This document shows positions 51,001 to 54,000 of a stretch of DNA of 64,000 bases, piece by piece. The DNA comes from Gammaproteobacteria bacterium (GTDB taxonomy: Bacteria; Pseudomonadota; Gammaproteobacteria; JAUIAT01): contig JAUIAT010000001.1 in the NCBI GenBank assembly GCA_030425295.1, positions 69,392 through 133,391 on the forward strand, given 5' to 3'. Each line of letters starts with the position of its first letter. The first letter of the stretch is position 1. Made by a program: the position numbers.

Positions 51001-54000
51001 TTCAAAGAAAGCATCAAAAAGATTTATTAGTCCTTGAAGATATAAATATATCTCTTTATGAAAGGGAGATTGTAGCTCTTATTGGCAAGTCTGGTTGTGG
51101 GAAGTCTACGTTGCTTAGAACTATGGCAGGACTCTCTTCTCCAACAAGTGGGAATATACTTTATAATGGAGAGTCTGTTTTTGGACCAGTTGATGGTTTG
51201 TCTATGGTCTTTCAAGAGTTTGCACTTTTGCCATGGCTTACAGTTTTGCAAAACGTTGAGTTAGGCCTTGAGGCTAAAAAAATTCCTCGTGCTGAAAGGC
51301 GTAAAAGAGCTCTTAAGGCAATTGATGTTATTGGTTTAGACGGCTTTGAGTCAGCTTACCCTAAGGAGCTATCTGGAGGCATGCAGCAGCGTGTTGGTTT
51401 TGCAAGAGCTTTGGTTGTTGAGCCTGAGATTTTGCTAATGGATGAGCCTTTTTCTGCACTGGATATGTTAACTGCAGATAACCTTAGAAATGATCTTTTA
51501 GATCTCTGGAATGATCAAAAAACTAATATTAAGAGTATTTTTTTTGTTACTCATAATATTGAAGAAGCAGTGTTATTTGCTGATAGGATTATTGTTTTGA
51601 GCATTAATCCAGCCCAAGTAAGGGCAGAGCTTTCTGTTAACGTGCCACACCCTAGAAACGATCAGGATTCAAAATTAAGAAAATTAATTGATGATATTTA
51701 TACGTTAATGACAATGATGCCTGTTGGCGGTAAAACTGTAGCCGGAGGTAAGTATCGTGGTATTAATATTGGTTACAAGCTCCCAAATGTTAATGTTTCA
51801 GAAATGACAGGTTTCTTGGAAACTCTATTGGAAGCAGAAAAAGATAAGGTGGATTTACCAGATCTTGCCGAGGAGCTTCATTTAGATGTAGATTCACTTT
51901 TTCCAATTACTGAAGCTTTAGAAATTCTGCGCTTTGTTGATGTGGAAAAAGGCGATATTCAGCTCACCAAAAGTGGTAAAGTGTTTATTAATGCTGATAT
52001 TCAGGAGCGTAAAAAACTCTTTTCTACTCACTTAATGAGTTATGTTCCCTTGGTTCGGCATGTCCGTCGTGTGCTGGATGAGAGGCCAGGAAATCGTGCT
52101 GCTGAAGATCGTTTTCTTATAGAGATTGAAGATTACCTAACAGAAAGTGCTGCAGAAAAGGTTTTGTCTGTTGCAATTGATTGGGGTCGATATGCTGAGC
52201 TTTTTGCATATGATTACAATACGGGAATGTTGAGTTTAGAAAATCCTGAGGGGTAATTTTTTGGAGAAATATATCATGGATGTTAAATCTAGTAATGCTG
52301 GTTTTACGCTTATTGAGCTTGGTATTGTTATCATTATTTTGGCCATTATAACAACGGTTGCTGTTCCAAGATTTGTTGATTTGCTTTCTCGTTCTGAGAC
52401 TGCGAGTTTACAATCTGTTGTTGGAACGCTAAATGCATCATCGGCAAGTAATTTTGGGCTAAGAAAAGCAAACCCTTCAGCTGGTGTTGGAGTTGATAAT
52501 TGCACTGATGTTGAGTCAGCTATTCCAGGTGGAGCTCTTCCTGAAGGGTTTTCAATAATATCTCAGGCTGTTGTAGATGGGGAAGAGGTTACGTGTTCAG
52601 TGATCAATACTGATACTGATGAGCAGGGCGCTTTTGTTGGGTTTGGTGTAAGTTAAAAAAAGCCCTTCAATGAAGGGCTATATTTCGGTGACTCTTTGGT
52701 TTAAGTTTCTGTGAAACCTAGGACACACTTGACTCTATCGCCAGTTGATGTTGTTGCAGAAGAGCAGTTAGTGTTTGTGTAAGTTTGTATAATGTAATCT
52801 GTTGTACCGATAGAAACTGATACGCCAGTAGAAACGGCTCCAGCTGCGCTACCAGATGTTGTCACCTGGGTTCTATCAGCTAGATCTTGAACTGTTGGAA
52901 ATCTATTTACTGCCGGTCTAGCATCAAAATTATCAGCTATGTAAAGTGCAAAAGTGCTTTGAACTGAGTTAGTAGATGTTCTTATCGCGTCATCTTGAGC
53001 TCTAACTTGTAGATCGACAAATCTAGGAACTGCGATTGCTGTAATTACTGAAAGAACGATAATTACAATTGCGAGCTCGATTAGTGTGAAGCCTCGTTGG
53101 CTTAAGTCTTTGTTTTGAAATCCATTTCCTAACACTGTCGACTCCTTAGTGTTTTTTTTTACGTATATTTTAGTTATATTACTAAAAACACTTTTTTGCA
53201 ACGGCTAATTTATAGGGTCTGTTGACAATTGGGGTTGCAAGGCGAAAATATCTAGAATGCATTGAAAATTTATTCTTTAATTTGGCGAATAGTCTCTCTA
53301 TTCAACGTGTGAAAGGGGAAATTTTCACAAATTATATAAATTTGCAGCTGTAAGACCAATTGTCAACAGACCCTAAGTGTTAAGGTTTTGGGCTTGATAT
53401 ATATTGACAAATATACGAATATATGGCTATCTGTTAGTAAGTGATCTTAAGGATGAGAAAAATGCGCAAACAAAACTTTGGTTTTACTCTAATAGAATTA
53501 GCTATCGCAGTATTAATTATTGCTGTTCTTGCAGCAATCGCTGTTCCTAGGTTTGCGAATTTAGCAAGCAAAGCGTCAAGGTCAGCTGTTTTGACTGCTA
53601 TTGGTACGGCACAAACTTCAATTGCCGTGTATAGAGCTGAGAATCGCGGTTTCCCTACAACTGACGAGCTTGCTGCCCAGATGCAGCTAAGGCTTGCATC
53701 TGCCGAAGGTGTTAGTATAGGTGTATCAATCGAGATTGATTCTACAAATTATATTATAAACACTTACACTGATAGCGCTTGTACAGCAGCTACATCTGAC
53801 TCTACGGATAAAGTTAAGTGTGCGCAAGGTACAACACCTGAGCCACCATCTGAAGACTAATAAATATTTGACATAAATGGATTTTTTATACTAGTATGAA
53901 AATATGGGTCAAATTTATATGTAGGTTTTACAGTATAAAGAATGAAAACAACAGGGAGATTAAGTATGTTTTCAAAAGTAAAAGGATTTAAGCAAGCCGG

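What the first reader, a model, noticed from the sequence alone, without database searches (positions are those of the whole stretch)
53213..53375. A 163-bp MITE family with 20-bp perfect terminal inverted repeats, present in at least 4 copies in this window
Two full copies (46279-46440 and 53213-53375) share about 85% identity over the whole element. Two internally deleted derivatives retain the TIRs (45303-45382 and about 8696-8752), and solo right-end motifs (AGACCCTAATTAT) occur upstream of rmuC (about 13769) and ybaB (about 30862). Copies sit in promoter-proximal positions: between divergent pilin genes, next to ssrA, downstream of the hybrid kinase and downstream of icmO. Each TIR carries a TTGACA hexamer. 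The family may be mobilised in trans by a transposase elsewhere and may rewire expression of pilin and effector genes.
Basis: seen in the sequence. Interest (0 to 1): 0.55.

Follow-up and report, generated by a model that had tools for sequence, protein, structure and literature searches.

The report
Hairpin-shaped MITE from an IS5-family element
The repeat is a real miniature transposon (MITE) whose ends match those of a widespread ~850-bp IS5-family (IS427-group) insertion sequence; it occurs across Legionella-like bacteria, is old and decaying in this genome, and is an ordinary kind of element with an unusually well-kept hairpin shape.

Summary
The window has two full copies (53213-53375 and 46279-46440, about 85% identical). 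It also has an 80-bp short form (45303-45382), a left-truncated short form (about 8694-8751), a solo right end (30824-30865) and small end fragments near 13741-13846.

The terminal repeat (TA)GGGTCTGTTGACAATTGG is the inverted repeat of 824-879-bp IS5-family, IS427-group insertion sequences. These have two overlapping ORFs and score E=5e-82 against NF033580. I found them full-length in many Proteobacteria. The published relative ISAba31 has nearly the same ends and makes a 2-bp duplication, so the flanking TA is most likely the target-site duplication and the true repeat is 18 bp.

The same ~164-bp element occurs in many Legionellales genomes and metagenomes. One MAG has 35 full or contig-end matches. 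A variant with a different interior occurs in Neisseriaceae.

The whole element is a long foldback. Of 62 pairs, 95.6% of cells are paired and 28 pairs show compensatory changes, against at most 49% paired in slid controls.

No transposase lies in the window or in any Legionellales locus I held. The promoter-like motifs are real as sequence but untested, and the family as a whole shows no preference for promoter-proximal sites.

Verdict: a new member of a known kind, of moderate to low interest.

The parts
53213..53375 (+). Copy A: full 163-bp MITE, with a flanking TA at each end. Its 18-bp TIRs at 53215-53232 and 53356-53373 are perfect. It lies between divergent pilin-like genes.
   Evidence: nhmmer E=2.8e-39. 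DNA fold -33.8 kcal/mol, z=-8.1. The flanking ORFs carry N_methyl motifs, with starts read.
46279..46440 (+). Copy B: full 162-bp MITE with imperfect TIRs. It lies 28 bp upstream of the yajQ-like (DUF520) ATG at 46250 (minus strand) and 108 bp upstream of the tmRNA gene (46549-46926).
   Evidence: E=7.3e-36. Fold z=-8.0. The Logan contig L001 starts at window 46382, inside this copy.
45303..45382 (+). Copy C: 80-bp short form that has lost the inner hairpin and has degenerate TIRs. It lies between convergent genes, and its terminal TA plus the adjacent base forms the stop codon of ORF 45380-45736 (minus strand).
   Evidence: 80-bp forms with the same architecture occur in other genomes (L054, L108, L078).
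8694..8751 (+). Copy D: left-truncated short form. It has the right TIR (8732-8751, 2 mismatches) plus part of the left arm, but no left TIR. It lies between the convergent icmO/dotL-like gene and sodB.
   Evidence: E=6e-06.
30824..30865 (+). Copy E: solo right end (TIR with 2 mismatches), 35 bp upstream of the ybaB start at 30789 (minus strand).
   Evidence: E=0.004.
13741..13846 (.). Possible relics upstream of rmuC: a degenerate right end (13741-13762, 15/20), AAGACCCTAA (13766-13775) and an exact left-end 11-mer TAGGGTCTGTT (13836-13846).
   Evidence: Read. The profile search is not significant (E about 1), so this part is only suggestive.
53222..53249 (+). Promoter-like site in the left arm of copy A: TTGACA-16-GAAAAT, facing inward and reading towards the plus-strand pilin gene. 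The same motif is present in copy C (45312-45339).
   Evidence: Consensus scans, 10 of 12 matches. Untested.
53331..53359 (-). Promoter-like site in the right arm of copy A: TTGGTC-17-TATAAT, reading through the element towards the minus-strand pilin gene.
   Evidence: Read. It falls below the scanner's threshold for the -35 hexamer. Untested.
46396..46424 (-). The same TTGGTC-17-TATAAT site in the right arm of copy B, reading towards yajQ (ATG at 46250, Shine-Dalgarno AGGAGA).
   Evidence: Read. Untested.

Best explanation
These are copies of a non-autonomous transposon (MITE) that uses the ends of an IS5-family, IS427-group insertion sequence.

Shown:
- The 18-bp terminal repeat GGGTCTGTTGACAATTGG is the same as the repeat bounding 824-879-bp elements that encode a two-ORF, frameshifted DDE transposase.
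- The ~164-bp element is dispersed in many Legionellales genomes.
- It is always intergenic and flanked by TA.
- It has been kept as a long foldback through many compensatory changes.

Inferred:
- A transposase of this clade, encoded elsewhere in the genome or now lost, binds the two ends. It cuts and joins the element into a TA dinucleotide and duplicates that TA.
- Because the element begins with G, insertion into the TA of a TAA or TAG stop codon recreates a TAG. This would explain why copies can sit directly against gene ends.
- In this genome the family is old and probably immobile. The full copies differ by 15%, one has damaged ends, and the rest are deleted or truncated.

Possible side effects on neighbours are inward-facing promoter-like sites in both arms and a strong hairpin in any transcript that crosses the element. 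These are plausible but unproven. The best candidate is yajQ, whose promoter must lie in or beyond copy B.
For: - The TIR is far above chance in the window. It is also found in more than 116 genome stretches, against roughly 17 expected by chance, which is my own estimate from pattern information and database size.
- Paired ends fall into two size classes, 163-167 bp and 824-879 bp.
- The long class encodes orfA/orfB with DUF4096 and DDE_Tnp_1 domains and scores E=5e-82, 275 bits, against NF033580 'IS5 family transposase'. The right TIR overlaps the stop codon.
- Published relatives: ISAba31 is 858 bp, with IRs GGGTGTGTTGACACTT / AAGTGTCAACAGACCC and a 2-bp duplication (PMC4776018). It is classed IS5/IS427 (PMC12540391). 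IS427-group ISs are 832-865 bp with a 2-bp DR in 12 of 13 listed and have frameshifted ORFs (PMC3281130).
- All 35 tabulated elements start with TA and 31 also end with TA. No longer direct repeat is present.
- In 4 of 4 cases where an ORF stop overlaps the element end, removing the element plus one TA restores TAA or TAG.
- The family is multi-copy. One Legionellales MAG has 35 full or contig-end matches on 30 contigs, ending about one k-mer (99) into the element. There are 14 more loci in metagenomes.
- A MITE and a transposase fragment with the same TIR co-occur in one Neisseriaceae MAG.
- All 27 full copies examined are intergenic.
- Foldback: 62 pairs, 95.6% of cells paired, 28 pairs with compensatory changes, covariation score 0.386 against 0.111 in shuffles and at most 0.104 in slid controls.
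Against: - No transposase was found in the 64-kb window or in any Legionellales locus I held, so the mobilising enzyme in this lineage is unidentified.
- No empty site was compared. TA is its own reverse complement, so it cannot be formally separated from the inverted repeat.
- Beyond about 20 bp, the MITE arms do not resemble either end of the full-length ISs recovered, so the direct parent is unknown.
- The element is not a simple internal-deletion derivative, because its right arm mirrors its left arm.
- The conserved core and the compensatory stems exceed what transposase binding at the tips alone would require.
Confidence: 0.85

Rival explanations
1. The element is a conserved structured regulatory element or small-RNA gene that is not mobile. 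Its 'TIRs' would simply be the base of a functional hairpin.
For: - There is strong covariation, with several pairs showing 4-6 pair types.
- There is a sequence-conserved asymmetric core, GAGGCGAATAGC...GCTATTTAACGA, with 62 invariant columns across diverse lineages.
- Promoter-like motifs occur in both arms.
Against: - The ends are identical to those of transposase-encoding ISs in unrelated phyla.
- Copies sit at unrelated loci in every context type.
- Near-identical copies break a MAG assembly.
- Truncated and deleted relics are common.
- No Rfam family matches.
- An unbiased count of G.T versus A.C mismatches between the arms gives 64 versus 40, so there is no clear strand-specific (RNA-level) signal.
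Confidence: 0.06
2. The element is mobilised as a single-stranded hairpin by an HUH-type enzyme (REPIN/RAYT-like or IS200/IS605-like) rather than by a DDE transposase. This would explain the selection for arm complementarity.
For: The foldback is maintained by compensatory change across lineages. REPINs are the established example of this pattern (my own knowledge, not tested here).
Against: - The tips are the IRs of DDE IS5-family elements and carry the TA flanks typical of that group.
- No RAYT or TnpA-Y1 gene was seen near the copies, although I did not search for one systematically.
- Full-length ISs with the same tips are not foldbacks.
Confidence: 0.04
3. The copies are independent internal-deletion remnants of full-length ISs that once sat at these sites, not a family that transposes as a 163-bp unit.
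For: Short forms of many lengths share the same tips: 72, 80, 90, 100, 133, 184, 191, 207, 268 and 368 bp.
Against: - The same 163-167-bp architecture and conserved core recur at unrelated loci and in many genomes.
- The right arm mirrors the left arm rather than the transposase 3' end.
- Two 80-bp copies at different loci of one MAG differ by a single base.
Confidence: 0.03

Closest known systems
IS5 family, IS427 group insertion sequences (for example ISAba31, IS1248, ISPaes1)
   Same: The terminal repeats are nearly the same: ours is GGGTCTGTTGACAATT and the ISAba31 IRR is GGGTCTGTTGACACTT, a 14/16 match by my own count. They share the 2-bp target duplication and a TTGACA inside the IR. Full-length elements with exactly the window's tips were recovered.
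   Different: The window elements are 163 bp or shorter and encode nothing. Their interior is a mirror-image foldback unrelated to the IS interior. No cognate transposase was found in this lineage.
Correia elements (CREE/NEMIS) of Neisseria
   Same: It works like one. Both are roughly 100-160-bp MITEs with long and short forms, TA at both ends and a whole-element hairpin. Both have sigma-70-like promoter motifs in the arms and sit tightly against genes (PMC10969869 and my own knowledge).
   Different: The sequence is unrelated, as far as I recall. The parent transposase of Correia is unknown, whereas here the parent IS clade is identified. IHF binding, promoter activity and RNase III processing have been shown for Correia but not tested here. 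The Neisseriaceae copies found here carry the IS427-type tips, not the Correia repeat.
QMITE1 and QMITE2 of Coxiella burnetii
   Same: These are MITEs of the same bacterial order. They are hairpin-forming and intergenic, with promoter-like motifs (PMC5896051).
   Different: QMITE1 is about 400 bp, with a 21-bp TIR and 2-4-bp DRs of WW, SS or GAAG. QMITE2 is about 190 bp with unique 7-9-bp DRs. Neither is reported with these tips or with a TA duplication.
REPINs (REP doublets mobilised by RAYT)
   Same: Hairpin arms are kept complementary through compensatory evolution.
   Different: REPINs have no DDE-type terminal repeats and no TA duplication. They depend on an HUH enzyme.

Membership tests
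Bacterial MITE | Small (under about 500 bp) and non-coding | tested here: met
   The copies are 162-163 bp and 80 bp. They lie outside ORFs except for a 3-bp overlap with a stop codon.
Bacterial MITE | Terminal inverted repeats | tested here: met
   The repeat is perfect over 20 nt including TA (18 nt without TA) in copy A. It is imperfect in copies B and C.
Bacterial MITE | Multiple dispersed copies in a genome | tested here: met
   There are 5 copies or relics in 64 kb and 35 matches in one related MAG.
Bacterial MITE | Target-site duplication | tested here: inconclusive
   All 35 tabulated elements start with TA and 31 also end with TA. Stop codons are restored in 4 of 4 in-silico excisions. 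No empty site was compared, and TA is palindromic, so it cannot be separated from the repeat. The 2-bp DR rests on published relatives.
Bacterial MITE | Ends shared with an autonomous element | tested here: met
   The same tips bound 824-879-bp transposase-encoding elements.
IS5 family / IS427 group (as a non-autonomous derivative) | Autonomous partners are 800-1000 bp and have two overlapping ORFs that give a DDE transposase | tested here: met
   Pfam DUF4096 and DDE_Tnp_1. NF033580 at 275 bits against a cut-off of 110. The group definition comes from PMC3281130.
IS5 family / IS427 group (as a non-autonomous derivative) | IR sequence of the clade | tested here: met
   14/16 identity to the published ISAba31 IRR. 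The tips are identical in 13 full-length elements.
IS5 family / IS427 group (as a non-autonomous derivative) | Cognate transposase present in the same genome | not testable with these tools
   None was found in the window or in the Legionellales loci held. The rest of the source genome is not available; only short Logan contigs exist.
Correia element (CREE) | The 26-bp Correia terminal repeat and restriction to Neisseria | not tested
   No Correia sequence was compared with tools. From memory the repeat is unrelated. The host here is a Legionellales bacterium.
QMITE1 / QMITE2 (Coxiella) | Size, TIR and DR pattern as published | tested here: not met
   Size and DRs differ (about 400 bp with 2-4-bp DRs, and about 190 bp with 7-9-bp DRs) compared with the descriptions in PMC5896051. 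Sequences were not aligned.
Known RNA family (Rfam) | Match at the gathering score | tested here: not met
   Only tmRNA and two tRNAs were found in the window. Permissive searches gave only sub-threshold plant miRNA-precursor hairpins.

The most novel reading that the evidence does not exclude
The foldback itself may be under selection, not just the tips. Two hypervariable stem modules (about positions 21-31 and 58-68) change freely between lineages yet stay complementary. A-rich islands spaced about 10-11 bp apart and an asymmetric core (GAGGCGAATAGC...GCTATTTAACGA) stay fixed. This pattern would fit a DDE-type MITE whose mobility depends on a cruciform or intrinsically bent shape that brings the two ends together. 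It would also fit an element that hosts have co-opted as a bidirectional promoter or RNA-hairpin module.
Probability: 0.15. Interest if true: 0.6.

Novelty: new member of a known kind. Interest (0 to 1): 0.3.

Why it matters
- The finding links a family of small Legionellales repeats to a defined transposase clade. I found no name or description for this family in the papers I searched.
- That link makes mobilisation directly testable, unlike Correia elements, whose transposase is still unknown.
- It explains assembly breaks in Legionellales MAGs.
- It flags concrete loci (yajQ and a divergent pilin pair) where a transposon relic may supply the promoter or a 5'-UTR hairpin.
- The compensatory evolution of the arms gives a clean data set for asking why MITEs stay palindromic.
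- It does not change any general picture. MITEs are already reported in 99.6% of Legionella genomes in a large census (PMC11602168).

Tried and rejected
- IS6/IS26 or IS1595 parent: I guessed this from the CTGTTG motif and the ~850-bp size. I rejected it because the transposase is IS5-type and no 8-bp duplication flanks any copy.
- IS630/Tc1-mariner parent: I guessed this from the TA flanks. I rejected it for the same reason.
- Strand-specific RNA selection: on the RNAalifold pairs, G.U outnumbers A.C by 61 to 8. That structure favours G.U by construction. An unbiased arm-versus-arm alignment gives 64 versus 40, so I make no claim.
- The MITE as a left-end/right-end deletion product of the recovered ISs: the arms do not match IS subterminal sequence beyond about 20 bp.
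- IHF site in the core: inspection by eye found no good match to WATCAANNNNTTR.
- Metagenome scan with a pattern specific to the window's subfamily: 0 hits.
- Viral contig scan for the TIR: 0 hits.
- Plasmid collection, blastn with copy A: no match.
- Literature search for the TIR string: it returned only the ISAba31 paper.
- Empty-site search among the loci I held: I found only shared insertions, for example N. musculi versus N. dentiae.
- Locating the source genome by exact protein look-up: only short Logan contigs from run ERR3428545.
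Full report
**1. The observation**

- The two full copies, 53213-53375 and 46279-46440, align end to end at 85-86% identity.
- The 20-mer TAGGGTCTGTTGACAATTGG occurs six times in the window at 3 or fewer mismatches, against none in 100 shuffles. It is perfect at both ends of 53213-53375.
- A profile built from related elements recovers both full copies at E=3e-39 and E=7e-36. It also recovers the right part of 8694-8751 (E=6e-6), the left part of 45303-45382 (E=5e-4) and the end at 30839-30865 (E=4e-3). 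The site near 13769 is not significant.
- Reading that last region shows a degenerate right end, AAGACCCTAA, and 60 bp further on an exact TAGGGTCTGTT. I treat these as possible relics only.

**2. Host and context**

- The window is about 39% G+C.
- It carries a Dot/Icm-type coupling protein, pilin-like genes, sodB, ybaB and a DUF520/YajQ gene, plus a tmRNA and two tRNAs.
- Exact protein look-ups find it only as short contigs of one sequencing run, ERR3428545. One of those contigs starts inside copy B, as expected for a repeat.
- The nearest genome seen is an uncultured Coxiellaceae MAG, at about 72% nucleotide identity in one gene.
- The host is therefore an uncultured Legionellales bacterium.

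**3. What the ends are**

- I scanned one genome per species with a degenerate form of the right end. My rough estimate from the pattern's information content is about 17 by chance.
- The hits fall in Legionellales and Coxiellaceae. They also fall in Neisseriaceae, Nitrosomonas, Methyloglobulus, Woeseiaceae, several alphaproteobacterial families and others.
- Pairing left and right ends within 3 kb gives two size classes: 163-167 bp (25 cases) and 824-879 bp (about 15 cases). There is also a scatter of other small sizes.
- The long class carries two overlapping ORFs. Their fused product has DUF4096 and DDE_Tnp_1 domains and scores 275 bits (E=5e-82) on NCBIfam NF033580, 'IS5 family transposase'.
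- The right terminal repeat overlaps the transposase stop codon.
- These transposases are only about 40-60% identical to one another, yet they keep the same tips.
- The only bacterial paper in the library that holds part of the repeat string describes ISAba31. It is 858 bp, with repeats GGGTGTGTTGACACTT / AAGTGTCAACAGACCC and a 2-bp duplication (PMC4776018). It is classed IS5/IS427 (PMC12540391).
- Functionally captured IS427-group elements of Paracoccus are 832-865 bp. Twelve of the 13 listed have a 2-bp duplication, and the group has frameshifted ORFs (PMC3281130).
- I conclude that the window's element uses IS427-group ends. The flanking TA is most likely the target duplication, which leaves an 18-bp repeat.

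**4. Target site**

- All 35 tabulated small elements start with TA and 31 also end with TA. None has a longer direct repeat.
- I could not find an empty site among the loci I held, so this step rests on the published relatives.
- One indirect check supports it. In four cases the stop codon of a neighbouring ORF overlaps the element by exactly 3 bp: window 45380-45382, L117, L130 and L131.
- Removing the element and one TA restores TAG, TAA, TAA and TAA respectively.
- The element starts with G, so insertion into the TA of a stop codon recreates TAG. That would make such sites tolerated.

**5. The family**

- Once oriented, the Legionellales elements align over their whole length, with 62-67 invariant columns.
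- They occur in MAG 29 (JABEVJ01). It has 35 full or contig-end matches on 30 contigs, many ending about 95-99 bp into the element, which matches the assembler's k of 99.
- They also occur in a Legionellaceae MAG, a Coxiellaceae MAG, Tatlockia and L. gresilensis. L. nagasakiensis and L. quateirensis carry only short forms (99 and 80 bp).
- A second metagenome scan found them in 14 metagenome contigs.
- Short forms of 72, 80, 90 and 100 bp lack the inner hairpin. Two 80-bp copies at different loci of one MAG differ by a single base, so short forms also spread.
- Neisseriaceae carry 164-167-bp and 191-bp elements with the same tips but a G+C-rich, largely different interior. In one Neisseriaceae MAG, transposase fragments with the same tips co-occur with them.
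- No transposase was found in the window or in any Legionellales or metagenome locus I held.

**6. Shape**

- Each window copy folds as single-stranded DNA far better than shuffles do (z about -8).
- On 21 non-redundant Legionellales elements the consensus is a single long hairpin of 62 pairs, and 95.6% of cells form a standard pair.
- Of those pairs, 28 show compensatory changes on both sides, and several show 4-6 pair types.
- The covariation score is 0.386, against 0.111 in column shuffles and at most 0.104 when partners are slid by 1-3 columns. In the slid versions pairing drops to 34-49% (the earlier set is).
- Variation is concentrated in two stem modules, about positions 21-31 and 58-68.
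- The tips, A-rich islands at about 33-36, 44-46 and 54-58 (with their mirror images), and an asymmetric core (GAGGCGAATAGC-loop-GCTATTTAACGA) are fixed.
- The full-length ISs are not foldbacks beyond their tips, so the MITE is not a simple internal deletion of them.
- I tested whether the pairing is strand-specific, which would point to RNA. The excess of G.U over A.C on the predicted pairs (61 versus 8) largely disappears with an unbiased arm-to-arm alignment (64 versus 40). I make no such claim.
- The foldback could be maintained by selection on mobility, through a cruciform or bent shape that helps the ends meet. It could also be maintained by arm-to-arm conversion, or by host use. My data do not decide between these.

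**7. Effects on neighbours**

- A consensus scan finds TTGACA-16-GAAAAT in the left arm of copies A and C, and TTGGTA-18-TAAAAT in copy B.
- By reading the reverse strand, both full copies carry TTGGTC-17-TATAAT in the right arm.
- All of these sites face inward, so transcripts would cross the element and exit on the far side.
- In copy B the exit is 28 bp from the yajQ ATG, which has a good Shine-Dalgarno sequence. The yajQ promoter must therefore lie in or beyond the element.
- In copy A the exits face a GTG-initiated pilin-like gene 77 bp away on the minus strand and a pilin gene about 80 bp away on the plus strand.
- These are motifs, not evidence of function. The -10-like hexamers are only partly conserved in other lineages.
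- Across 27 full copies in all genomes, every copy is intergenic. The contexts are tandem 12, divergent 5, convergent 4 and contig edge 6. The family shows no preference for promoter-proximal sites.
- Nothing links the element to effector genes.

**8. Comparison and novelty**

- The element works like a Correia element: TA-flanked, 100-160 bp, with long and short forms, a whole-element hairpin and promoter-like arms. It is not a member of that family.
- It differs from Coxiella QMITE1 and QMITE2 in size and duplication pattern.
- No Rfam family matches.
- A large census already reports MITEs in 99.6% of Legionella genomes (PMC11602168). I could not check whether this family is in that catalogue.
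- I file it as a new member of a known kind: an IS5/IS427-group MITE of Legionellales, present here as old relics.
- Interest is moderate to low. Its main value lies in the identified transposase clade and the unusually clear compensatory evolution of the arms.

Noticed in passing
window 15077-15360 and 20869-20968: A second family of small G+C-rich repeats, with units such as GTCATCTCGAC... and GGATCCCTCGAC...GCTCGGGATGAC. They occur in direct and inverted copies in two intergenic regions.
   Followed up: no
window 8612-8680 and 23156-23285: A 69-nt inverted match (77%) between the region just left of MITE copy D and a hairpin-forming region at 23156-23276. This may be a third small repeat family.
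   Followed up: no
window 10747-10906; 16885-16967; 27416-27564: Direct repeats of 67 nt, 93 bp apart (94% identical); a 21-bp tandem array; and a 75-bp tandem duplication inside ORF 27395-27895.
   Followed up: no
window 45380-45382; L117:3888-3890; L130:911-913; L131:498-500: The element's terminal TA plus the adjacent element base forms the stop codon of the neighbouring ORF. In-silico excision restores TAG or TAA in all four cases.
   Followed up: partly
L100:6459-6826: A short-form MITE carries a nested palindromic element of about 290 bp from a different repeat family (GTCATTGCGAGG...).
   Followed up: no
L042:1-264: In a Neisseriaceae MAG, the right end of a full IS (transposase C-terminus plus TIR) directly abuts a partial MITE of the same family. 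This shows that the two co-reside and insert near each other.
   Followed up: partly
L005, L046, L073, L074, L105: Other MITEs of 133, 184 and 268-269 bp have the same tips but unrelated interiors, and each is also a near-perfect foldback. This IS clade seems to spawn palindromic MITEs repeatedly in different phyla.
   Followed up: partly
window 46549-46926: The tmRNA has the tag peptide ANESNFYAEADFAEAA. A candidate promoter, CTGTCA-18-TATAAT (46492-46521), lies between MITE copy B and the gene.
   Followed up: no
window 52261-54415: A cluster of four pilin-like genes with N-terminal methylation motifs. Three of them have related N-terminal coding sequence. The minus-strand gene appears to start at a GTG (53135), giving a 15-residue leader.
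   Followed up: partly
window 46263-46456 and 53212-53376: A permissive Rfam search matches plant miRNA-precursor models (MIR2630 at E=4e-4, MIR6224 at E=0.45), far below their gathering scores. I read these as long-hairpin look-alikes, not homology.
   Followed up: yes
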